Shown here: positions 3 to 9,385 of the stretch, one piece after another | Layout of the letters: each line of letters opens with the position of its first letter | How positions within the stretch are numbered: position 1 is the stretch's first letter | DNA from: a virus | Lineage: Duplodnaviria > Heunggongvirae > Uroviricota > Caudoviricetes | Length of the DNA: 10,001 nt | Virus record (IMG/VR): IMGVR_UViG_3300029517_000070 | Location: 1 to 10,001 of that record | Strand: one strand, 5' to 3' | Notes under the pieces: generated by a model | What the model was told of the DNA's origin: nothing | The model's database searches: none | The model's input: the letters and a program-made list of their open reading frames with translations, nothing else | Made by a program: the position numbers and the translations under genes

Positions 3-77
3 GTCCTCTTAGTTAAATGGATATAACGAGCCCCTCCTAAGGGCTAATTGCAGGTTCGATTCCTGCAGGGGACACCA
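3..77 (+). tRNA. argW: tRNA-Arg, anticodon CCT (reads AGG), complete 75-nt gene ending in CCA
   Basis: Cloverleaf can be folded by eye: acceptor stem GTCCTCT (3-9) pairs with AGGGGAC (66-72), discriminator A, CCA at 75-77; anticodon loop CTCCTAA gives anticodon CCT; T-loop GGTTCGATTCC present. Matches the E. coli argW sequence as I remember it. Confidence 0.9.
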
Positions 78-172
78 TTTATCAGTTCGCTACCATCCGT
101 ACCAGTCCGCAAAATCCCCTGAATATCAAGCCTTCCGTAGATTCACAGTTCGTCATGGTTCGCGTAAGATCG

Positions 173-202
173 TTGACAGCCGCACTCCATGACGGGTAAA
201 AA
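173..202 (+). promoter_or_regulatory. Putative sigma70 promoter for the integrase (TTGACA at 173-178, AT-rich -10-like TAAAAA about 18 bp downstream)
   Basis: Consensus -35 hexamer seen directly; the -10 is weak. Position is inference only. Confidence 0.3.
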
Positions 203-238
203 GTGGATAAAATAATTTTACCCACCGGATTTTTACCC

Positions 239-1393
239 ATGCTCACCGTTAAGCAGATTGAAGCAGCAAAGCCGAAAGAAAAACCATACCGCCTACTCGA
301 TGGTAATGGCCTGTACCTTTATGTCCCTGTATCAGGGAAAAAGGTATGGCAGCTTCGCTACAAGATTGACGGTAAGGAGAAAATCCTGACCGTCGGAAAA
401 TATCCACTTATGACTTTGCAGGAGGCAAGGGATAAGGCATGGACTGCGAGGAAAGACATCTCGGTTGGTATCGATCCGGTAAAGGCGAAAAAGGCTTCGT
501 CTAACAACAATTCCTTTAGTGCGATTTACAAGGAATGGTACGAGCACAAGAAGCAAGTCTGGTCAGTAGGCTATGCAACTGAACTTGCAAAAATGTTTGA
601 TGACGACATTTTACCTATCATCGGCGGCATTGAAATTCAGGATATTGAGCCGATGCAACTGCTGGAAGTAATCCGCAGATTTGAAGATCGCGGTGCAATG
701 GAGCGAGCAAATAAAGCCCGCAGAAGATGCGGCGAGGTTTTCCGTTACGCTATTGTCACTGGTAGGGCTAAATATAACCCGGCACCTGACCTTGCTGACG
801 CCATGAAGGGATACCGCAAGAAGAACTTCCCGTTTCTTCCTGCAGACCAGATCTCGGCATTCAACAAAGCACTTGCAACATTTTCAGGAAGTATCGTATC
901 GCTCATTGCGACCAAAGTTTTACGCTACACAGCCCTAAGAACAAAAGAGCTTCGTTCCATGCTATGGAAGAACGTCGATTTTGAAAACAGGATTATCACC
1001 ATCGACGCCAGTGTGATGAAGGGACGCAAAATTCATGTTGTCCCGATGTCAGACCAGGTGGTTGAACTTCTCACTACACTAAGCTCAATCACTAAACCAG
1101 TATCAGAGTTTGTTTTTTCCGGGCGCAACGATAAGAAGAAGCCAATCTGCGAGAACGCGGTATTGCTTGTGATCAAACAAATTGGCTATGAAGGGCTGGA
1201 AAGCGGTCACGGATTCAGGCATGAATTCAGCACGATTATGAACGAGCACGAATGGCCTGCTGACGCTATTGAAGTGCAACTGGCACATGCCAACGGCGGA
1301 TCTGTGCGCGGGATTTACAACCATGCTCAGTATCTCGATAAGCGCAGAGAAATGATGCAGTGGTGGGCTGACTGGCTTGATGAGAAGGCGTGA
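239..1393 (+). CDS. intS: Tyrosine recombinase / P4-family prophage integrase (IntS-like)
   Basis: ORF-track protein (203..1393) from residue 13 onward (MLTVKQIEAAKPKEKPYRLLDGNGLYLYVP...) matches E. coli CPS-53 IntS as I recall it. C-terminal catalytic region contains R...HxxR...Y-type motifs (HGFRHEF, GIYNHAQY). The GTG at 203 lies inside the putative promoter, so ATG at 239 is preferred; the start is still uncertain. Confidence 0.85.
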   Translation: MLTVKQIEAAKPKEKPYRLLDGNGLYLYVPVSGKKVWQLRYKIDGKEKILTVGKYPLMTLQEARDKAWTARKDISVGIDPVKAKKASSNNNSFSAIYKEWYEHKKQVWSVGYATELAKMFDDDILPIIGGIEIQDIEPMQLLEVIRRFEDRGAMERANKARRRCGEVFRYAIVTGRAKYNPAPDLADAMKGYRKKNFPFLPADQISAFNKALATFSGSIVSLIATKVLRYTALRTKELRSMLWKNVDFENRIITIDASVMKGRKIHVVPMSDQVVELLTTLSSITKPVSEFVFSGRNDKKKPICENAVLLVIKQIGYEGLESGHGFRHEFSTIMNEHEWPADAIEVQLAHANGGSVRGIYNHAQYLDKRREMMQWWADWLDEKA

Positions 1394-1443
1394 TGCTTTC
1401 CATCTTTCCATTCGGATTCCTCCTACCAGATTTACCTAGAGAG

Positions 1444-1452
1444 TGATATAGT
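1444..1452 (+). promoter_or_regulatory. Possible extended -10 promoter element (TGATATAGT) upstream of the acyltransferase
   Basis: TGnTATAGT motif seen 30 bp upstream of the ATG at 1483; no good -35 at correct spacing. Inference. Confidence 0.3.
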
Positions 1453-1482
1453 TAATCTTTTAAAAAGTTACATGGGCTTTGC

Positions 1483-3318
1483 ATGTCTTCTAAATTTAGG
1501 AATGATATTAATGGGCTAAGGGCTCTAGCGGTCGCAGCTGTTATTATATATCACTTTAATAGCTCTTATATGTCAAGCGGATTTGCAGGAGTGGATGTTT
1601 TTTTTGTTATCTCTGGATACCTGATGACATCCATAATAGTTAATAAATTCAATGATGGTAATTTCAAGCTTTTTGATTTCTACCTATCAAGAGCAAAAAG
1701 AATCATACCATCATTAATAATAGTCTGCTTTGCTCTGTTGATTTTTGGTTTTTTATTAATAGAACCTGGTACTTATCAGCTAATAGGCAAGCATTCGGCA
1801 AGCTCTCTTACATTCATATCAAACTTTACCTATCTATTTGAATCTGGATATTTCGACCAATCATCCAAAGAAAAGTTTTTGCTGCACACTTGGTCACTAT
1901 CTGTTGAGTGGCAGTTCTACTTGATTTATCCATTTATAATAATATCAATTTCTAAGCTGTTTGGCATAACAAGGCTGCGAGCGGCGCTAGCGTCTCTATC
2001 GGTGATTGGATTTATAATTTCTTTAATTATATCAAAAGAAGATATATCTTTATCTTACTATATGTTTTTTAGTAGAGCATGGGAGATGATAGTAGGTGGA
2101 GTTATTTTCTTGCTTCCATCAATAATGACGCAGACAAAGAGACTGACTTTAGAAATAATAGGGTGCATTGGTATAATATTATCATTTTTTGTTTTTACTG
2201 AACAAACGTTATGGCCGGGGACTCCAACTCTAATGCCTGTAATGTTCACTGCATTGGTTATATATGCTAATAATGAAAAATCAATTCTATCTGCAAGGCC
2301 AATTCAATTAATCGGTAAGATATCATATTCTATATACTTGGTGCATTGGGTAATATTAGTATCATTAAAAAAACTGTATATAGACTTTGGGTTTGCTGCA
2401 TACCTGATATCAACATTAATGCTATCTTTTGCATTATATCACTTTGTTGAAAAAAGGCGTAGCTTTGGGAAAATATGGGTTTATTTGTATGTTTTATGTT
2501 TTCTCATTTCGCTGGCCGTCTCCTTGAATGGAGTCAGATCGCGAACAAGTGGGTCAGATGATTACAGAATGAGCCTTCAGGAGTTCAGAGACAAGTACGA
2601 AGGAAGTGATGGAGTAAAGGATAGCCTCAAACCTATCTTCTTCAACTCTAACGAAGATGACTTTGAATATATATTAATTGGAAGTAGCCATGCAAAGCAC
2701 TATTACTCATATATAAAATCAAAAGGTTTGAAAGTGGTGTCGCTTGCGCTTGATGGGTGTAACTCAACAAAAAACAGGTATACCAACTACCGTCCGGAAT
2801 CATGCGCCCCTCGCTATGATCAAGTGGTAAAATTCATCAATGGCCATCCTGGCAAAAAGGTAGTTTGGGCTACTTTGTGGACTTGGGTTGGGATCCCTAG
2901 AGATAGCTCCAAAAATAATAATGAGAGTACTCTAGATGTGATAAATGAAGAAGTAACTGCATTTATAGGTGACATTAATAAATCAAATAGTGACATTTAT
3001 CTTATAGGTGACGTTCCGGGCACTAAGAAACTAACATTTGAATGCATGGCTAAAAATTCGCTGCCTTTGAATAGATATTTCAATTTGGGCGGATGCAGTG
3101 ACAAGCAAAAGTATGAGGACGATGGTGTTGATGCAACACTATCATCCATAGCTAGAAAATATGATAACGTTCACTTTATAGGGGCTGCAAACTCCTTGTG
3201 TTCATCAGGTGAATGCATGTTGATATCTGAAGGTAAACCAATTTATACAGATTATGGTCACCTTTCAAAATATGGTGCAAATATAGTCGGAAAGTATATA
3301 TTCAGTAAAGTTAATTAA
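1483..3318 (+). CDS. Integral-membrane acyltransferase (acyltransferase-3 family) fused to a C-terminal SGNH-like domain; probable O-antigen O-acetyltransferase (Oac/OafA-like serotype-conversion moron)
   Basis: 611 aa. N-terminal about 370 aa are very hydrophobic with the AT3-type start (RNDINGLRALAVAAVIIYHF) and multiple predicted TM segments; the C-terminal about 240 aa are soluble. The gene is visibly much more AT-rich than its neighbours, and sits between int and tailspike as oac does in Sf6 and gtrABC do in CPS-53/P22. Confidence 0.85.
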   Translation: MSSKFRNDINGLRALAVAAVIIYHFNSSYMSSGFAGVDVFFVISGYLMTSIIVNKFNDGNFKLFDFYLSRAKRIIPSLIIVCFALLIFGFLLIEPGTYQLIGKHSASSLTFISNFTYLFESGYFDQSSKEKFLLHTWSLSVEWQFYLIYPFIIISISKLFGITRLRAALASLSVIGFIISLIISKEDISLSYYMFFSRAWEMIVGGVIFLLPSIMTQTKRLTLEIIGCIGIILSFFVFTEQTLWPGTPTLMPVMFTALVIYANNEKSILSARPIQLIGKISYSIYLVHWVILVSLKKLYIDFGFAAYLISTLMLSFALYHFVEKRRSFGKIWVYLYVLCFLISLAVSLNGVRSRTSGSDDYRMSLQEFRDKYEGSDGVKDSLKPIFFNSNEDDFEYILIGSSHAKHYYSYIKSKGLKVVSLALDGCNSTKNRYTNYRPESCAPRYDQVVKFINGHPGKKVVWATLWTWVGIPRDSSKNNNESTLDVINEEVTAFIGDINKSNSDIYLIGDVPGTKKLTFECMAKNSLPLNRYFNLGGCSDKQKYEDDGVDATLSSIARKYDNVHFIGAANSLCSSGECMLISEGKPIYTDYGHLSKYGANIVGKYIFSKVN

Positions 3319-3322
3319 ACTA

Positions 3323-3351
3323 AGGCCCCTCAATCCTGAGGGGCTTTTTTT
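3323..3351. terminator. Rho-independent terminator shared by the convergent acyltransferase and tailspike genes
   Basis: Perfect 8-bp GC-rich stem GCCCCTCA (3325-3332) / TGAGGGGC (3337-3344), 4-nt loop, then a run of seven T (3345-3351) on the + strand. The tailspike stop codon overlaps the T tract. Confidence 0.8.
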
Positions 3352-5182
3352 ACGCGGTTAATCTCCAGCGCTTATCATAGTAATGCATTAATCCTTGTGA
3401 TGTTATTTTCATATGCACGATTGCTTGAGAAAAAGTGGCGGCAGCAAAACTTACCCTAAGAAATGTTTGTGAGCCGTTATTGTATTTAGATGTGGTAATG
3501 CCGGTTAGGTTTTTACTTCCAGCAATCATATTTGACCAAACATTACTTGAAGCTAAAGTGGCTTGATCTTTTGCTGATACGCTTACCAATATAACTCCAC
3601 CGGTCTCACCAGTTCCGCCCAATCCATTCTGATTAATTGGCATAATCTTTAACTCTGCTGCGATAAAAACCCCCCCCGTATATGAAGCTTCTTCACCAAT
3701 CGTTGAAATAAGAATATCAATATTTCTTCCATATGGTACCAAAACCGTCGCATCTTCAGTTAATACCTGAGTGTATGTGGCGTTTTTAGCTTGGTGTTTA
3801 GCGGAAAGAACCACACCATCAGAACCAGTTCGAAAGCCGATTCCAGTATGTTCCCCGTAGTATTTACCGTAATAATTTATTCCTCTGACGTCAAATTCTG
3901 AAATAGCACTTCCGGTTGTGTTTTTTACGAAAATGAACTTATCACCGAAGGTGAAACCTCGGCACTGATATTGATTCGTTGGATCGGCAATGTTTTTAAG
4001 AAAGGAAATTCCCTTATAGGCTTTAACGTACCCACTTTCGAAACGAAAGTTCACAGGACCATTTTGTTCATTTGCTGGTAATTCAACAAAATGAGTAACC
4101 GTGGCTCCGCTAGGGTCCTGAATCCAGCAGGAAATGTTCTCAACGGTTGCAACTGATTGGCCGTCCTCTTCATTGTAATCTGCAAAATCAAGAGCGTGCG
4201 TACCATTTATCCCTTCGATACCCATACCTTTGATAGAAAGAGAGCGGAATCCATAGAACTTATGAGGTAAAGAACAACCATCTGCAGCAATATTATTTGC
4301 GGCAACGTACATTAATGGCCCCGGAGCCTTTACAGGTTCATAGGTTTCTCTATCAATCACAGCCCCCCAAAGATAACCAACACCACATTGCGAAGACCAA
4401 ATTGCAGAGACATCAGTACTTGTTCCCCATATTGCAAATCCGTATGTGCAATCATACATAAAAATATTTTGTATGACGCTGACAAATGGACACGATGGGA
4501 GCGCAAATTTATAATGGTAGAAGTCTATATTAGTTAGCTTCCAGTTCTTTCCGCCACCATACGTGGTGCTAGGACCACTTAGCAAAAGTGGACACCCTGT
4601 ATATTCAGAGTCAGTGTTTCTGAAACCAATATTTTCAATATGTAAATTATGACCCCATGAGGACATGTAAAAACCGCCATTTCCTGACGTATAAATCAAA
4701 CTCTGCCTCGGGTTATCACCCTTAATATTTAAGGTGATGCCTTCCCATCTAAACTGGCTAATGTCAATTTGAGTGTTACCAATATATATAGGCTGGTCTA
4801 TAAAAATAGGAAGTTTAGTTAGATAAGCTTTATTAAGTGCTAATCCATCATTTGTTACACCTGTTAAATCGACGCCACCCATGCTTGGCGCTTTTGGGTA
4901 AGGCGTTCCCTGAATAGTACTTCCATCAATATAAGGAGCATCCATCCACGCACCAAACATACGAGGAGTAACATATCCTTTCCCCTGCAGATCTCGTTTC
5001 CAGCGTTTACCACCCGCAGTGACAATGACCATGCCGTTATCATCTGCAGAAGTCGAATCTGTGAAATCGGCCACAAACAGACCACCACCAGTATCACCTG
5101 ATACTGTCGGCTTCATGCCTGTAGTGTGGAAGTCGACGAAAATCTTTTGCTGATCTCGCTCAGGCTCAATTGTCCTTAACAT
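3350..5182 (-). CDS. Tailspike / receptor-binding depolymerase-like protein (predicted beta-helix), lacking a P22-type N-terminal head-binding domain
   Basis: 610 aa, Gly/Asn/Thr/Ser-rich beta-type sequence with a pectate-lyase-like N-cap (GYVTPRMFGAW). Sits in the gene 9 position after ejection genes and convergent with the O-antigen acyltransferase. No Shine-Dalgarno before the ATG at 5182. No similarity to the conserved P22/Sf6/HK620 tailspike N-terminus as I recall it. Confidence 0.65.
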   Translation of the reverse strand: MLRTIEPERDQQKIFVDFHTTGMKPTVSGDTGGGLFVADFTDSTSADDNGMVIVTAGGKRWKRDLQGKGYVTPRMFGAWMDAPYIDGSTIQGTPYPKAPSMGGVDLTGVTNDGLALNKAYLTKLPIFIDQPIYIGNTQIDISQFRWEGITLNIKGDNPRQSLIYTSGNGGFYMSSWGHNLHIENIGFRNTDSEYTGCPLLLSGPSTTYGGGKNWKLTNIDFYHYKFALPSCPFVSVIQNIFMYDCTYGFAIWGTSTDVSAIWSSQCGVGYLWGAVIDRETYEPVKAPGPLMYVAANNIAADGCSLPHKFYGFRSLSIKGMGIEGINGTHALDFADYNEEDGQSVATVENISCWIQDPSGATVTHFVELPANEQNGPVNFRFESGYVKAYKGISFLKNIADPTNQYQCRGFTFGDKFIFVKNTTGSAISEFDVRGINYYGKYYGEHTGIGFRTGSDGVVLSAKHQAKNATYTQVLTEDATVLVPYGRNIDILISTIGEEASYTGGVFIAAELKIMPINQNGLGGTGETGGVILVSVSAKDQATLASSNVWSNMIAGSKNLTGITTSKYNNGSQTFLRVSFAAATFSQAIVHMKITSQGLMHYYDKRWRLTA

Positions 5183-5210
5183 TGCTATATCAGGGCATGT
5201 CCCGATGTAT

Positions 5211-5462
5211 TTAAGACCGTCTTACCAGACCACGACCAGCCTGTTCTGCAATTTGCCCTGCACTTTGACCACCAGTGAGCCAATCGCCAGCTTGTTGCAT
5301 CAATGATGGTTCTTCACGTGCTGGTTCATTGCTATCCTGGCTGACAGTTTGTTGCTGAACAGACTGTCCAGCAAAATACTCATCAATGGCAGATCCAATA
5401 TCTTCCGTGCTCGTACCATCAGGGAAGGTAAATGTCTTACCGTTTGCAGTTACTTTCATCAT
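5211..5462 (-). CDS. Hypothetical small protein (83 aa) at the position where a gp16-type ejection protein is expected; possibly an N-terminal remnant
   Basis: ORF with GGTGGA Shine-Dalgarno just upstream of tandem ATGs (GTGGAATGATGAAAG); the C-terminal half is low-complexity and Q/A/G/E-rich. Functional assignment is inference. Confidence 0.4.
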
Positions 5463-5572
5463 TCCACCGTAAATTGAATGCCTGATTTTGAGGTATATGA
5501 TCCAACCTGATTCCGTGGTTCTCCTGAAGGTGTCGAATCTTGCGCTGGTGCTGCGTCAGTATTCATTGACAT
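5459..5572 (-). CDS. Possible 37-codon ORF ([37 protein letters not shown]) overlapping the gp20-like stop and coupled by ATGA overlap to the 83-aa ORF
   Basis: Hand translation of the minus strand; below the ORF-track length cutoff. May be a gene remnant rather than a real gene. Confidence 0.2.
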
Positions 5573-6873
5573 ATACCGCTTAACGGCACTCCCAATGATT
5601 CACCTTTTTTAACATCCAACCCCAATATCTGACCGCCATTACGCGATTGTCCAGGGTTGCCATTCGCGCTCATCCACTCGGCTTTAAACTCATTAAACTG
5701 CGCGTTTCGTCGCTCAAGGTTTGCCATTGCATCAAGCCATCTTGCGACCGTCTCAGGGTTATCCATGTCAGTTGGTGCACCCTGACGAACGATCTCAACG
5801 TCTTTATCCGTTGCGGGGCCGGGAGGTAGGAATTTAAGAACCTGACTGTTAACAAGGGCATTTTGGCGAATGCGCAAATCACGCAATGTCGTATCGCTTC
5901 CGGTAAGTTTTGCGAACATGTTCTGTGCGTTACCGAACAAACCTGTCGTTGGTTTTTCTGCTCTGAACTGTTGAGCAAGCGCACTCATAGAATTGGCTGA
6001 GTTTGATGATGCTGTGGCATTGTTTACAGCCGTCTCGATGCCTTTTTCCATGTTTACTGACAGCTTAGGTGCTTCGCTAATCAACTGCTGAGCCTTTTCC
6101 TGCGCTTGCTGCATCTTAAACCCGAACTCTTGCTGATCCAGAGCCAAGCGTTGTGCTGCGATATTGTGCCCAGTCATTGCTGACTGATAGGAAAGGTTTT
6201 GCCCTCTCGCCTGAAGTGCTTCACCAGCCTGATTGCTGCGGATTGTCTCTGCCAGCCTGCCTCGGTCAATTTCACGACCAGCCATCTTATCCTGAACAGC
6301 AAACGCCTTTTCTGGCCCAAGCGCACCGAGAGACATAGTAGTCAGCATGTGTGATAGCTGCTCTGGATTCTGGATACCTGTCTGAATCATCCAGTCAGCA
6401 TTAGCACCAACGCGATTTAACCTGTCCTTGTTGTCAGTAATGAATTTACTGTAGGCTTCCGGTCCCTGAGAAAGAGCGACGTTAGCCCTCATGGCTAAAT
6501 CGCCCATATCGTTGCGTTGCTGCTCATTAAGACCGGAAAACGCCTGTTGTGCCTGTGCAACAAACGCTGGATTTTCCTGGGCAAACTTAAATAGTCCCGA
6601 TGGATCACCAGAAGCCCATGCATCAGCGTGAACCTTATTGAACGCACTAATCGCTTTCTGTTGCTGTTCCTGCTTATAAATATCAGCAACTCCAGCCAGA
6701 CCACGTAACGCGGTCAGACCAACGTTATTTGCACCTGAGCGAGCCAGTTCATTGTTTTCGCGGATCAGACCAAGCGTTGCGTTAATGTCGCTTGCCTTTG
6801 GCGCATTCTCGTTTTGCGCACCAATGCCAGCCAGAAAACCACCAGAATTAATACCCTGTTGCCACGTAGCCAT
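5563..6873 (-). CDS. Phage ejection / internal virion protein, P22 gp20-like
   Basis: 436 aa, Ala/Gln-rich and predicted alpha-helical; AAGGGG Shine-Dalgarno 7 nt upstream of the ATG; located directly downstream of the gp7-like gene in the same operon. Assignment by order and composition, recalled not searched. Confidence 0.7.
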
Positions 6874-6883
6874 TGATTACCCC

Positions 6884-7576
6884 TTAAAACAACGAGCCAA
6901 GCAATCCGATACCAGCACCAATGCCAGCGCCCCAAGGCGTTGATGTTCCCAAAATGCTGGCAAGACCTGCACCGGCAATCGCACCAGACGTGCCACCGCT
7001 AATTGCAGTCTGAAGACTTGATGGTTTATTGGCATTAGCAGCGGCAAGAGCTGCGCTTTGCTGTGCAATGCTGCTCATGTTGTTGGCGTACGTCTGCCCG
7101 GCGTTTGCCTGACCTTGCAGTGCACCAAGCCCAACGTTTGCCAGATTGTTGTAATTGCTCATCTGATTTGATAACCAAGACTGACCGAGTGTCGGCGCGA
7201 TCGTAGCCAGTTGATTGCTTGTGGCTGTCGAACCAAGTCCACCCGTCGCCTCCGCAGCAGCAAGACTCTGGTAACGAGCCTGACCTGCAAGGTCTTTATA
7301 CTGCTGAGAGTTGTAATACTGATTAAGTGCCTGCCCCTGACCTTCTAAACTGGAAAGGTTTTGAAGCTGGTTAACATACTGCTCCGCAAGAGGCGTGAAC
7401 GGAGCAAGGTTTTTCATGATCGTCTGCCACTGCTGATTTTGCAGGTCTGCGGCATACTTCTGAGCTTCTGCTGCATACTTTGCGCTTTTATCAGAGCTGC
7501 CACCTTTCCCGCCTTTTTCAGGGCAATAAGGTTCCTCGCCGCGCAGTTTTCTGCCCAGCTTAAATGCATATAACAT
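6884..7576 (-). CDS. Phage ejection protein, P22 gp7-like
   Basis: 230 aa; N-terminus MLYAFKLGRKLRGEEPYCPEKGGKGG and a Gly/Ala-rich hydrophobic C-terminus are typical of P22-type gp7 as I recall; GGGAGA Shine-Dalgarno 5 nt upstream. Confidence 0.7.
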   Translation of the reverse strand: MLYAFKLGRKLRGEEPYCPEKGGKGGSSDKSAKYAAEAQKYAADLQNQQWQTIMKNLAPFTPLAEQYVNQLQNLSSLEGQGQALNQYYNSQQYKDLAGQARYQSLAAAEATGGLGSTATSNQLATIAPTLGQSWLSNQMSNYNNLANVGLGALQGQANAGQTYANNMSSIAQQSAALAAANANKPSSLQTAISGGTSGAIAGAGLASILGTSTPWGAGIGAGIGLLGSLF

Positions 7577-7578
7577 AG

Positions 7579-9385
<1,807 letters not shown>

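What the first reader, a model, noticed from the sequence alone, without database searches (positions are those of the whole stretch)
1483..3351. AT-rich O-antigen acyltransferase moron (AT3 plus SGNH) convergent with the tailspike
The gene's base composition is conspicuously lower in GC than everything around it, indicating foreign origin. Its two-domain architecture matches O-antigen O-acetyltransferases that prophages use for serotype conversion and to block superinfection by phages sharing the receptor. It has its own terminator, so it is probably still functional even though the prophage is defective.
Basis: partly seen in the sequence, partly recalled or inferred. Interest (0 to 1): 0.45.

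Follow-up and report, generated by a model that had tools for sequence, protein, structure and literature searches.

The report
Prophage-borne surface-sugar acetyltransferase gene, still intact
This is an intact gene for a two-domain membrane enzyme of the kind temperate phages use to acetylate their host's surface polysaccharide and so block further phage attack; it is a divergent example of a well-known trick rather than a new one.

Summary
Bases 1483-3318 (+) are one 611-aa ORF with an AT3 domain and a fused SGNH domain, both far above Pfam cut-offs. A hairpin plus T7 terminator follows at 3325-3351. The gene is convergent with a tailspike gene and is the lowest-GC stretch of the window (35.3% against 46.2% elsewhere).

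All residues shown to be essential in Salmonella OafA are present. A confident model's C-terminal domain matches the OafB SGNH crystal structure best. dN/dS against an 86%-identical copy is 0.11.

The surrounding element is a roughly 9.5-kb remnant of a P22-like prophage at argW, with two internal deletions. The layout int, acyltransferase, convergent tailspike matches Salmonella phage BTP1, whose GtrC (29.5% identical) blocks BTP1 and P22 infection.

One refinement: the low-GC block is not just this gene. A 3.8-kb unit (upstream region, acyltransferase, terminator, tailspike receptor-binding part) recurs at 85.5% identity in an unrelated TL-2011b-like phage backbone. The two genes therefore travel together.

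Verdict: a new, rare, sequence-divergent member of a known kind. The acceptor sugar, the acyl group and expression are all inferred, not shown.

The parts
3..77 (+). tRNA-Arg (anticodon CCT), argW. This is the chromosomal integration site and left boundary of the prophage remnant.
   Evidence: ARAGORN and Rfam tRNA at 63.4 bits. The same tRNA precedes intS in E. coli records L101, L103 and L115.
203..1393 (+). IntS-type tyrosine integrase, 396 aa from the first GTG. Relatives are called at 384-385 aa.
   Evidence: Pfam Phage_integrase 2e-38, Phage_int_M and Arm-DNA-bind_3. It is 96-97% nt identical to intS of E. coli prophages.
1423..5221 (.). Co-inherited 3.8-kb unit: upstream region, acyltransferase gene, shared hairpin and the tailspike receptor-binding part. 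Its GC is 38.5%, against 47.8% outside it.
   Evidence: A single 3800-bp blastn block at 85.5% identity matches L106, whose flanks are unrelated (53-57% GC, TL-2011b-like). dS is equal for the two genes, 0.68 and 0.64. The right end, 5221, is the deletion joint, so the true right edge is not defined here. Against other E. coli argW prophages the variable block is 1463-4923 (L101).
1444..1452 (+). Candidate extended -10 promoter element, TGATATAGT, 31 nt upstream of the start codon. There is no good -35.
   Evidence: Read directly from the sequence. The 12-mer GTGATATAGTTA lies upstream of every copy of this gene, including the foreign backbone L106, and upstream of a different AT3-only cargo in L101. 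It occurs once in the window, where 0.05 is expected by chance. The consensus promoter scan did not pick it up. Function was not tested.
1483..3318 (+). AT3-SGNH fused membrane acyltransferase, 611 aa, intact.
   Evidence: The AlphaFold2 model has pLDDT 92.3 and pTM 0.82. dN/dS is 0.107 against L106.
1501..2439 (+). AT3 (Acyl_transf_3) transmembrane domain, residues 7-319. It carries R13-X10-H24, SGFAGVD (32-38), FFVISG (40-45), R70-x-x-R73 and S113.
   Evidence: Pfam. These residues are invariant in alignments A1 and A2 and were read off. Their OafA equivalents R14, H25, G34, F35, D39, R69, R72 and S112 are essential or important (PMC7448272).
2470..2658 (+). Eleventh helix (residues 330-349) plus the structured linker that leads to the periplasmic domain. 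E323, just before it, corresponds to OafA E325.
   Evidence: DSSP helices of the model. E323 is at least 90% conserved. OafA E325A retains 4.8% activity. Assigning this helix as TMH11 is my reading of the model.
2659..3294 (+). Periplasmic SGNH domain, residues 393-604. The catalytic triad is S402 (block I, G-S-S-H-A), D590 and H593 (block V, D-Y-G-H). Conserved Cys pairs are C426/C441 and C573/C578.
   Evidence: Pfam PF19040. The A2 profile hits the OafB SGNH crystal structure 6se1_A at E 4e-4, with block I and block V aligned. Foldseek's top hit is 6SE1, E 2.6e-6, TM 0.66. The residues are invariant or at least 90% conserved.
3325..3351 (+). Intrinsic terminator: an 8-bp G+C-rich stem, a 4-nt loop and seven T. 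It is shared with the convergent tailspike gene, for which it is a weaker terminator on the - strand.
   Evidence: The stem is conserved in L106 while the loop differs (ATCC against ATAG).
3350..5182 (-). Tailspike gene lacking its N-terminal head-binding domain. The remaining ORF is 610 aa; the full-length protein is 744 aa.
   Evidence: It is 99-100% identical to 744-aa E. coli tailspikes that carry Head_binding plus Phage_tail_beta. The model has pLDDT 87.4 and a parallel beta-helix depolymerase fold; top hits are the AM24, Fri1 and CBA120 TSP2 tailspikes, the Depo32 depolymerase and the Sf6 tailspike.
5211..5462 (-). Stub of ejection protein gp16 (83 aa). The joint of deletion 1 lies at 5222-5226.
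   Evidence: blastn against L001 shows window 63-5226 matching L001 8581-13744, and window 5222-6298 matching L001 18594-19671. About 4.85 kb is therefore missing: the tailspike N-terminus, ant, arc, mnt, sieA and most of gp16.
5563..8106 (-). Ejection protein genes gp20 (5563-6873) and gp7 (6884-7576), and a gp14-like DUF2824 gene (7579-8106). The 5' end of the last is altered by deletion 2.
   Evidence: Pfam Inj_translocase 3.5e-118, P22_gp7 9.3e-135 and DUF2824 3.2e-45. Homology to the intact phage stops at 7969, and homology to the immunity region starts at 8034.
8024..8984 (.). Immunity region: a Cro/DicA-like HTH ORF (-, 8024-8380) and a CI/LexA-like repressor (+, 8352-8984).
   Evidence: Pfam HTH_3 plus Peptidase_S24, NCBIfam DicA-like, and 98.7% nt identity to L102.

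Best explanation
The gene encodes a two-domain inner-membrane O-acyltransferase, most likely an O-acetyltransferase. It modifies the surface polysaccharide recognised by the neighbouring tailspike; in a P22-like phage of E. coli that is most likely the LPS O-antigen.

Mechanism, by analogy with OafA and OafB:
- The ten-helix AT3 domain binds cytoplasmic acyl-CoA in a cavity lined by R13, H24, R70 and R73, and presents the acyl group at the periplasmic face.
- An eleventh helix and a structured linker place the SGNH domain in the periplasm.
- There the S402/D590/H593 triad takes the acyl group and transfers it to a defined hydroxyl of the polysaccharide repeat.

Biological role: the modified glycan is no longer bound or cleaved by tailspikes of the cognate type. 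The lysogen is protected against superinfection and re-adsorption, and its serotype changes.

Origin and fate: the gene arrived as part of a low-GC unit together with the tailspike receptor-binding part. It has outlived the prophage, which has lost its head, packaging, lysis and replication genes.

Shown here: domain architecture, conserved catalytic residues, fold, synteny, co-inheritance with the tailspike, purifying selection, the terminator and prophage decay. Inferred: the acceptor, the acyl group, expression in the remnant and the phage-resistance phenotype.
For: - Architecture: both Pfam domains score far above their cut-offs.
- Catalytic residues: every residue whose alanine mutant abolishes or strongly reduces OafA activity has its equivalent here. 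The OafA set is R14, H25, G34, F35, D39, R69, R72, S112, E325, S412, D587 and H590 (PMC7448272). The equivalents here are R13, H24, G33, F34, D38, R70, R73, S113, E323, S402, D590 and H593. All twelve are identical in all 8 sequences of A1. In the 51-sequence A2, nine are invariant and F34, E323 and D590 are conserved in at least 90% of sequences (residues read off).
- Fold: the model has pLDDT 92.3. Its best solved-structure match is the OafB periplasmic domain 6SE1, and the family profile also hits 6SE1.
- Synteny with a tested system: BTP1 has int, then gtrC, convergent with its tailspike. BTP1 GtrC is 29.5% identical over 99% of the length. It is necessary and sufficient to block BTP1 and P22 infection and tailspike cleavage of the O-antigen (PMC4413052).
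- Intact-phage copy: the same gene, differing only by V237I, sits in the same place in a complete 40.5-kb P22-like genome.
- Association with tailspikes: relatives at 42.8-45% identity in E. coli phages and prophages are also tailspike-adjacent (L104 PAS61, L116, L119; L118 shows only an uncalled 2.5-kb gap beside the gene).
- Co-inheritance: one 3.8-kb block at 85.5% identity lies in an unrelated backbone. The acyltransferase is 86% and the receptor-binding part 90% identical at the protein level, and dS is equal at 0.68 and 0.64.
- Selection: dN/dS is 0.107 overall, 0.13 for the AT3 part and 0.06 for the SGNH part.
- The slot: other argW P22-like prophages carry gtrABS, an AT3-only acyltransferase or a hexapeptide acetyltransferase in the same position.
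Against: - No experiment bears on this particular protein.
- Identity to any characterised enzyme is low: 29.5% to BTP1 GtrC. A single-sequence search against PDB sequences found nothing.
- The tailspike fold is shared by O-antigen and capsule depolymerases, so it does not fix the acceptor.
- No consensus sigma-70 promoter was found upstream. Only an extended -10 candidate is present, and the Shine-Dalgarno sequence is weak.
- Related tailspikes (67-69% identical) pair with an unrelated AT3-only enzyme. The link between enzyme and tailspike is therefore not strict at greater divergence.
- AT3 proteins can transfer groups other than acetyl. The only NCBIfam hit is a weak, far sub-threshold match to a succinyltransferase model.
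Confidence: 0.72

Rival explanations
1. The enzymology is the same but the acceptor is not the O-antigen. The enzyme would acylate a capsular (K-antigen) or other exopolysaccharide that is the receptor of the linked tailspike. This would parallel NeuO of the argW prophage CUS-3, which acetylates the K1 capsule.
For: The tailspike's closest structural matches include capsule depolymerases: Acinetobacter AM24 and Fri1, and Klebsiella Depo32 and K2-2. Sequence relatives of the receptor-binding part occur in Klebsiella and K1-host phages. The same argW-dsdC slot is known to carry a capsule acetyltransferase that protects against K1 phage (PMC9659370).
Against: NeuO belongs to a different, cytoplasmic enzyme class; the record annotates the 183-aa gene in this slot in L103 as 'serine O-acetyltransferase', and its hexapeptide-type fold is from general knowledge. 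The characterised prophage AT3-SGNH enzymes act on O-antigen: BTP1 GtrC and OafA/OafB. Structural matches also include the O-antigen tailspikes CBA120 TSP2, Sf6 and HK620.
Confidence: 0.15
2. The gene is a silent relic. It looks intact but is not expressed, or has no matching substrate in this host, and survives only because the deletions that gutted the prophage are recent.
For: The prophage has lost most of its genes. No consensus promoter was detected. The window's copy differs by only 4-5 nt from copies in intact phages, so within this lineage there has been too little time for selection or decay to show.
Against: Purifying selection acts across the lineage (dN/dS 0.107). All catalytic residues are intact. 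A conserved extended -10-like motif and a terminator flank the gene. A comparably decayed E. coli island at argW has kept its integrase, glycan-modification genes (gtrABS), tailspike and repressor (L115). A further decayed island in Dryocola has kept two acyltransferase genes beside an integrase fragment (L107). BTP1 gtrC is transcribed in lysogens under many conditions.
Confidence: 0.08
3. The enzyme transfers an acyl group other than acetyl (for example succinyl or propionyl), or acts on peptidoglycan or enterobacterial common antigen. It would then be a general envelope modifier, not a phage-receptor mask.
For: The AT3 family includes peptidoglycan O-acetylases (OatA) and non-acetyl transferases (reviewed in PMC9558356, listed). 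There is a weak NCBIfam match to the succinyltransferase SucT, at 90.8 bits against a cut-off of 1275. PatB is the second-best structural match.
Against: The SucT match covers only the generic AT3 part and is far below cut-off. The best structural and profile match is the O-antigen enzyme OafB. Of the relatives whose neighbourhoods were examined, most in E. coli and Salmonella phages and prophages lie next to a tailspike gene; the Proteus copies are free-standing chromosomal genes.
Confidence: 0.05

Closest known systems
GtrC of Salmonella phage BTP1 (the OafB / family-2 GtrC type; a P22-like Lederbergvirus)
   Same: The AT3-SGNH architecture and length class are the same (640 against 611 aa). 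The genomic layout is identical: int, then the acyltransferase, convergent with the tailspike. The gene has its own expression signals and is independent of gtrA and gtrB. GtrC has been shown to protect the O-antigen from tailspike cleavage and to block BTP1 and P22 infection.
   Different: Identity is only 29.5%. The host is Salmonella and the tailspike is an endorhamnosidase type unrelated to this one. BTP1 keeps a gtrA remnant upstream; this locus has none. The integration site also differs.
OafA and OafB of Salmonella enterica (characterised AT3-SGNH O-antigen O-acetyltransferases; OafB SGNH structure 6SE1)
   Same: All mutationally defined essential residues are conserved, as are the R/K-X10-H, GG-F/Y-xGV-D, FFxISG and RxxR motifs, the Ser-Asp-His triad and the periplasmic Cys pairs. 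The SGNH domain is the best fold and profile match.
   Different: The first G of the GG motif is S here (S32). Block I reads G-S-S rather than G-D-S. According to the literature, OafA is a free-standing chromosomal gene and OafB sits in a gtr-like island (not re-checked here); this gene is phage-borne. Sequence identity is too low for a single-sequence PDB hit.
Oac of Shigella phage Sf6, and the AT3-only acyltransferases in the same argW slot of E. coli P22-like prophages
   Same: These are also serotype-converting O-antigen acetylases. The slot between int and the tailspike is the same in L101, L113 and L114. For Sf6 itself this placement comes from the literature. The R...H and FFxISG-type motifs in the first helices are shared.
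   Different: They have an AT3 domain only (332-349 aa) and no SGNH domain. They are essentially unalignable with this protein outside those motifs.
O-antigen acetylases annotated in Escherichia phage vB_EcoP_PAS61 (Uetakevirus, O146 host) and Enterobacter phage Tyrion
   Same: These are the closest phage-record relatives, at 42.8% and 41.7% identity over the full length with the same two domains. In PAS61 the gene is directly next to the tailspike gene.
   Different: In PAS61 the gene is co-directional with and downstream of the tailspike, and that tailspike is unrelated. Both functions are annotations only and have not been tested.
NeuO of prophage CUS-3 (argW, E. coli K1)
   Same: The chromosomal site (argW-dsdC) and phage type are the same, as is the logic: a prophage acetyltransferase masks the polysaccharide its own tailspike recognises. 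Functional copies are retained in decaying prophages.
   Different: It is a different enzyme class, a cytoplasmic hexapeptide-repeat transferase. It acts on the polysialic acid capsule and is phase-variable through a heptanucleotide repeat. No such repeat and no GATC sites are found here.

Membership tests
AT3-SGNH fused carbohydrate O-acyltransferases (OafA/OafB/OatA type) | An N-terminal Acyl_transf_3 (PF01757) domain scoring above the curated cut-off | tested here: met
   106.8 bits against a cut-off of 31, residues 7-319.
AT3-SGNH fused carbohydrate O-acyltransferases (OafA/OafB/OatA type) | A C-terminal SGNH domain of the AT3-fused type (PF19040) scoring above the curated cut-off | tested here: met
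   86.4 bits against a cut-off of 27, residues 393-604.
AT3-SGNH fused carbohydrate O-acyltransferases (OafA/OafB/OatA type) | The R/K-X10-H motif in TMH1 and the RxxR motif in TMH3 (OafA R14, H25, R69, R72) | tested here: met
   R13, H24, R70 and R73 are invariant in 51 homologues. The motif definitions come from PMC7448272.
AT3-SGNH fused carbohydrate O-acyltransferases (OafA/OafB/OatA type) | Fusion-specific residues: the GG-F/Y-xGV-D motif, a Ser in the TMH3-4 loop and a Glu after TMH10 (OafA G34, F35, D39, S112, E325) | tested here: met
   The motif reads S32-G33-F34-A35-G36-V37-D38, and S113 and E323 are present. The first Gly is Ser here; the OafA G33A mutant is fully active.
AT3-SGNH fused carbohydrate O-acyltransferases (OafA/OafB/OatA type) | SGNH catalytic triad: Ser (block I), and Asp and His (block V, DxxH) | tested here: met
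   S402 lies in G-S-S-H-A, and D590 and H593 in D-Y-G-H. In A2, S402 and H593 are invariant and D590 is at least 90% conserved. The profile aligns these blocks with those of 6se1.
AT3-SGNH fused carbohydrate O-acyltransferases (OafA/OafB/OatA type) | A 10+1 transmembrane-helix topology with an extended SGNH fold in the periplasm | tested here: met
   The AlphaFold2 model (pLDDT 92.3) shows eleven long helices before residue 350, followed by an alpha/beta domain. Foldseek's top hit is the OafB SGNH structure 6SE1, E 2.6e-6, TM 0.66. The helix count is my reading of the DSSP string; membrane orientation was not computed.
AT3-SGNH fused carbohydrate O-acyltransferases (OafA/OafB/OatA type) | Acyl transfer to a carbohydrate acceptor that requires both domains | not testable with these tools
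   This needs LPS analysis of mutants, or an in vitro assay.
Prophage-encoded receptor-masking / serotype-converting O-antigen modification genes of P22-like phages | Location in the conversion slot between the integrase and the tailspike gene of a P22-like genome | tested here: met
   In the window the order is int 203-1393, gene 1483-3318, tailspike 3350-5182. The order is the same in the intact phage L001 and in BTP1. The slot holds gtrABS or other acetyltransferases in sister prophages.
Prophage-encoded receptor-masking / serotype-converting O-antigen modification genes of P22-like phages | Expression in the lysogen that is independent of lytic genes | tested here: inconclusive
   A conserved extended -10-like TGATATAGT motif and a terminator flank the gene, but there is no consensus promoter hit and no expression data.
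Prophage-encoded receptor-masking / serotype-converting O-antigen modification genes of P22-like phages | The modification blocks adsorption or cleavage by the cognate tailspike | not testable with these tools
   Support is indirect only. The gene is co-inherited with the tailspike receptor-binding part across two phage backbones with equal dS.
Moron (in the sense of Hendrix and colleagues: an autonomous extra gene in a phage genome) | Its own promoter and terminator, a deviant base composition, and presence or absence among otherwise similar phages | tested here: inconclusive
   The terminator and the deviant composition are met. The promoter is only a candidate. The slot is never empty in the relatives examined: it holds alternative cargo, and the unit exchanged includes part of the tailspike gene. 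This is cassette replacement rather than simple insertion.

The most novel reading that the evidence does not exclude
The unit of horizontal exchange is not the acyltransferase gene alone. It is a compact 'recognise and mask' cassette: the upstream promoter-like region, the AT3-SGNH gene, one shared hairpin terminator and the convergent tailspike receptor-binding part. The cassette has moved as one piece between a P22-like and a TL-2011b/epsilon15-like temperate podovirus. A phage would thus gain a new host-glycan specificity and the matching self-exclusion function in a single recombination event. After the prophage decays, the masking half is kept by the host.
Probability: 0.55. Interest if true: 0.4.

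Novelty: new member of a known kind. Interest (0 to 1): 0.28.

Why it matters
O-antigen acetylation changes serotype, antibody recognition and phage susceptibility, so each new enzyme is a possible hidden source of serotype and phage-typing variation in E. coli.

This one is rare. It is absent, at megablast level, from 5,426 complete E. coli genomes and from 50,697 phage records. It is also divergent, at most 53% identical to any named protein. Current typing schemes would therefore miss it.

The equal divergence of the enzyme and the adjacent tailspike receptor-binding part across two phage backbones gives a clean natural example of a receptor-recognition function and a receptor-masking function inherited as one block. 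This is relevant to predicting phage host range and to phage-therapy cocktail design.

The finding does not open a new mechanism.

Tried and rejected
- Near-identical DNA: megablast of 1400-3400 against complete E. coli genomes matched only a 63-nt stretch upstream of the gene. The same search against phage records found nothing. No annotated twin record exists in those collections.
- Species-representative genomes: the GTDB scan gave relatives of at most 36% identity (best segment 48%) and no context of use.
- Solved structures: a single-sequence search of PDB sequences found nothing. A family profile was needed to reach 6SE1.
- NCBIfam: the only hit was a far sub-threshold SucT match. I rejected it as evidence for succinyl transfer.
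- Defence and RNA libraries: PADLOC gave no hit. Rfam found only the tRNA.
- Promoter scan: no consensus sigma-70 site lies in the 89-nt upstream region. The extended -10 candidate comes from direct reading and from conservation.
- Phase variation, considered and not supported: there are no GATC sites within 1300-1600 and no tandem or heptanucleotide repeat. The only candidate is a T8 run at 1598-1605, which is also present in L106.
- attR: no direct repeat of the argW 3' end was found in the window at 14 nt or longer.
- Tailspike as deacetylase: I considered whether the tailspike might be a deacetylase or esterase, which would make an acetylase/deacetylase pair. The model is an ordinary beta-helix depolymerase-type tailspike, so I rejected this.
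- Strict co-variation of enzyme and tailspike: tailspikes 67-69% identical are paired with an unrelated AT3-only enzyme, so I rejected this too.
Full report
**1. What is at the coordinates**

The window holds one long ORF at 1483-3318 on the + strand. It is 611 aa and begins at the first possible start codon after an upstream stop. Pfam assigns residues 7-319 to Acyl_transf_3 (PF01757, E 1.5e-30, 106.8 bits, cut-off 31). It assigns residues 393-604 to the AT3-fused SGNH domain (PF19040, E 3.3e-24, 86.4 bits, cut-off 27).

Six bases after the stop codon comes the hairpin GCCCCTCA-ATCC-TGAGGGGC (3325-3344), followed by seven T (3345-3351). It folds at -18.4 kcal/mol on the + strand.

The next gene is a tailspike on the - strand (3350-5182). 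Its stop codon overlaps the T-run, so the two genes converge on a single hairpin. The consensus scan reported the hairpin only for the - strand, and its site count is no higher than in shuffles. The terminator call therefore rests on direct reading and on the stem being conserved, with a different loop, in a diverged copy (L106).

**2. Composition**

| Region | GC | GC3 |
|---|---|---|
| Acyltransferase gene | 35.3% | 32.2% |
| AT3 part | 32.8% | not used |
| SGNH part | 38.5% | not used |
| Integrase | 46.9% | not used |
| Ejection protein genes | 49-51% | not used |
| Window excluding the gene | 46.2% | not applicable |
| Tailspike downstream of 4924 | not used | 32.6% |
| Tailspike N-proximal part (conserved among phages) | not used | 40.7% |

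The lowest 1836-nt window in the sequence coincides with the gene. No non-overlapping window of that size falls below 41.3%. The low GC3 shows that this is not merely the amino-acid bias of a membrane protein.

The tailspike receptor-binding part has the same low GC3 as the acyltransferase. The compositionally foreign block therefore covers both genes.

**3. Genomic setting**

- The window starts with tRNA-Arg(CCT), which is argW. An IntS-type integrase follows.
- The window aligns at 96-98% identity with the mlaA-yfdC-argW-intS region of many E. coli genomes. Every one of the 5,426 complete E. coli genomes matches some part of the window. The host is therefore E. coli or a very close relative.
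- A JGI metagenome contig of 40.5 kb (L001) is a complete P22-like genome. It carries the same int, acyltransferase and tailspike at 98.7% nt identity, and its acyltransferase differs only by V237I.
- Against that phage the window has two deletions. About 4.85 kb is missing with a joint at 5222-5226. This removes the tailspike head-binding domain, ant, arc, mnt, sieA and most of gp16, leaving an 83-aa gp16 stub.
- The second deletion removes everything between the 5' end of the gp14-like gene (around 7969) and the immunity region (from 8034). Head, portal, terminase, lysis and replication genes are all gone.

**4. Is the enzyme intact?**

Mutagenesis of Salmonella OafA defined residues that are essential or important for O-antigen acetylation: R14, H25, G34, F35, D39, R69, R72, S112, E325, S412, D587 and H590 (PMC7448272). 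An 8-sequence alignment that includes BTP1 GtrC, and a 51-sequence family alignment, show all the equivalents present here. They are R13, H24, G33, F34, D38, R70, R73, S113, E323, S402, D590 and H593. All twelve are identical in the 8-sequence alignment. In the 51-sequence alignment nine are invariant, and F34, E323 and D590 are conserved in at least 90% of sequences.

Two small departures were seen. The first Gly of the GG-F/Y-xGV-D motif is Ser, and the matching OafA G33A mutant is fully active. Block I reads G-S-S instead of G-D-S. Cysteine pairs C426/C441 and C573/C578 are invariant, consistent with a periplasmic, disulfide-bonded domain as in OafA.

An AlphaFold2 model built on the 51-sequence alignment is confident (pLDDT 92.3, pTM 0.82). 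It shows eleven long helices followed by an alpha/beta domain. The best solved-structure match is the OafB periplasmic SGNH domain 6SE1 (Foldseek E 2.6e-6, TM 0.66), followed by peptidoglycan O-acetyltransferase PatB. The family profile also reaches 6SE1, with blocks I and V in register.

Against the 86%-identical copy in L106, dN/dS is 0.107, with 0.13 for the AT3 part and 0.06 for the linker plus SGNH part. The gene family is therefore under purifying selection. Within the window's own lineage there are only 4-5 nucleotide differences. Intactness in the remnant itself could thus still reflect recent decay.

**5. What it most likely does**

The closest experimentally studied system is GtrC of the P22-like Salmonella phage BTP1. 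It has the same two-domain architecture and 29.5% identity over 99% of the length. Its layout is the same: int, then gtrC, convergent with the tailspike. GtrC(BTP1) needs neither GtrA nor GtrB and is not phase-variable. It protects the O-antigen from cleavage by the BTP1 tailspike, and it is necessary and sufficient to block infection by BTP1 and P22 (PMC4413052).

Closer but untested relatives are annotated O-antigen acetylases. They occur in E. coli phage PAS61 (42.8%, directly next to a putative O146-binding tailspike) and in Enterobacter phage Tyrion (41.7%). E. coli prophage relatives at 43-45% identity also sit next to tailspike genes.

The mechanistic model for this family is as follows. 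The AT3 domain brings acyl-CoA through a membrane cavity to the periplasmic face. The mobile SGNH domain then passes the acyl group to the polysaccharide (PMC7448272; PMC9833829).

I therefore read the gene as a surface-polysaccharide O-acetyltransferase, most likely acting on the O-antigen, that masks the receptor of the tailspike type encoded next to it. The acceptor, the acyl group and expression are inferred.

**6. The gene and the tailspike receptor-binding part travel together**

A Logan contig (L106) shares one uninterrupted 3.8-kb block with the window (1423-5221) at 85.5% nt identity. The block comprises 60 nt upstream of the start codon, the acyltransferase (86% aa), the hairpin, and the tailspike from residue 225 onward (90% aa).

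The flanks are unrelated to P22. They have 53-57% GC, a different tailspike N-terminal anchor, and a large terminase and internal virion proteins. These are about 71% nt identical to Escherichia phage TL-2011b and about 70% to Yersinia phages YeP4-6.

Synonymous divergence is the same for the two genes, 0.68 and 0.64. This fits one shared history rather than two independent acquisitions.

Against other argW P22-like prophages the variable segment is 1463-4923. It is flanked by conserved int and intergenic sequence on one side and by the tailspike N-proximal part on the other. In those sister prophages the slot holds other glycan-modifying cargo, or in one case a hypothetical gene:
- an AT3-only acyltransferase (L101, L113, L114);
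- a 183-aa 'serine O-acetyltransferase' (L103);
- gtrABS (L115);
- a 446-aa hypothetical protein (L102).

The linkage is not absolute. Tailspikes 67-69% identical to this one are paired with an unrelated AT3-only enzyme.

**7. Expression signals**

No consensus sigma-70 promoter was found in the 89-nt region upstream. However, TGATATAGT (1444-1452) has the form of an extended -10 element. The 12-mer GTGATATAGTTA is found upstream of every copy of the gene, including the foreign backbone L106, and upstream of a different cargo in L101. In the window it occurs once, where 0.05 is expected by chance.

There are no GATC sites nearby, so Dam/OxyR phase variation of the gtr type is unlikely. There is no NeuO-like repeat. 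The only candidate slippage site is a T8 run at 1598-1605.

**8. Rarity and retention**

At megablast sensitivity the gene is absent from 5,426 complete E. coli genomes and from 50,697 phage records. It is present in at least one draft E. coli genome (GCA_000703525.1), one IMG/VR contig and several metagenome or read-archive assemblies.

The nearest named proteins are 53% (Dryocola), 52% (Aeromonas) and 49% (Proteus) identical. In Dryocola the homologue lies next to tRNA-Arg(CCT) with only an integrase fragment and a second AT3 gene. Both are at 35% GC in a 54-56% GC genome. This is a still more decayed island that has kept its acyltransferases.

E. coli E3 shows a parallel remnant that keeps int, gtrABS, tailspike and repressor. 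Published work on CUS-3 and neuO at the same argW-dsdC site describes the same pattern: the prophage decays while a functional capsule acetyltransferase that protects against phage is retained (PMC9659370).

**9. Rivals**

- The acceptor could be a capsule or other exopolysaccharide. The tailspike fold is shared by O-antigen and capsule depolymerases.
- The gene could be silent in this remnant.
- The acyl group or target could differ from the O-antigen and acetyl paradigm.

None of these is excluded. Each is less well supported than the O-antigen masking reading.

**10. Verdict**

This is a new, rare and divergent member of a known kind, the prophage AT3-SGNH O-antigen acetyltransferases. It has one useful extra: evidence that it is exchanged together with the tailspike receptor-binding part as one cassette. 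Interest is modest.

Noticed in passing
window 5211-5462 and 5222-5226; 3350-5182: Deletion 1 fuses an 83-aa gp16 stub to a tailspike gene that has lost its head-binding domain. A 610-aa ORF with the complete beta-helix part remains, starting at an internal ATG 28 nt after the stub's stop codon. It is unknown whether a free, virion-independent depolymerase is still made. If it is, the acetyltransferase would protect the cell's own polysaccharide from it, as in BTP1.
   Followed up: partly
window 7969-8034: A second deletion joint lies here. The 5' end of the gp14-like DUF2824 gene is fused to the immunity region, giving a 175-aa ORF instead of 151 aa. All morphogenesis, lysis and replication genes are missing.
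   Followed up: partly
L106 667-4466 (Logan ERR11042089 contig): The same cassette (acyltransferase, terminator, tailspike receptor-binding part) sits in a TL-2011b/YeP4-like podovirus backbone of 53-57% GC, between the tailspike anchor and a holin gene. The identity and lifestyle of that phage and its host were not established.
   Followed up: partly
L106 868-2562 and L110 8268-9962: Automatic gene calls give a 564-aa product starting at Met48, although the full 611-aa frame is open upstream. That call would remove R13 and H24 and make the enzyme look truncated. It is an annotation hazard for this family.
   Followed up: yes
L107 7345-11836 (Dryocola sp. BD586, CP150452.1): Next to tRNA-Arg(CCT) lie an integrase fragment, an AT3-only gene (391 aa) and a 53%-identical AT3-SGNH gene. 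Both are about 35% GC in a 54-56% GC chromosome, and no other phage genes are present. This looks like an argW prophage worn down to its acyltransferases.
   Followed up: partly
L116 4744-10167 (E. coli GCA_024685585.1): A 45%-identical AT3-SGNH gene lies co-directionally between a tailspike gene and a gene with a SASA (sialate O-acetylesterase family, PF03629) domain. An acetylase and a putative esterase side by side next to a tailspike is curious.
   Followed up: no
window 8909-9385: A 158-aa ORF overlaps the 3' end of the repressor gene. It has a hydrophobic N-terminal segment and matches only PHROG 2651 (unknown function, E 1.8e-58), with no Pfam, NCBIfam or PADLOC hit. It may be a lysogen-expressed accessory gene next to cI.
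   Followed up: no
window 1598-1605: A T8 homopolymer lies inside the FFVISG motif codons and is conserved in L106. It is a possible slippage site, but there is no evidence of length variation among the copies seen.
   Followed up: partly
L115 (E. coli E3, NZ_CM130010.1): An independent argW remnant keeps int, gtrABS, tailspike, arc, cI, N, ral and torI next to dsdC. Like the window, it retains the integrase, the glycan-modification genes, the tailspike and the repressor after the rest has decayed.
   Followed up: no
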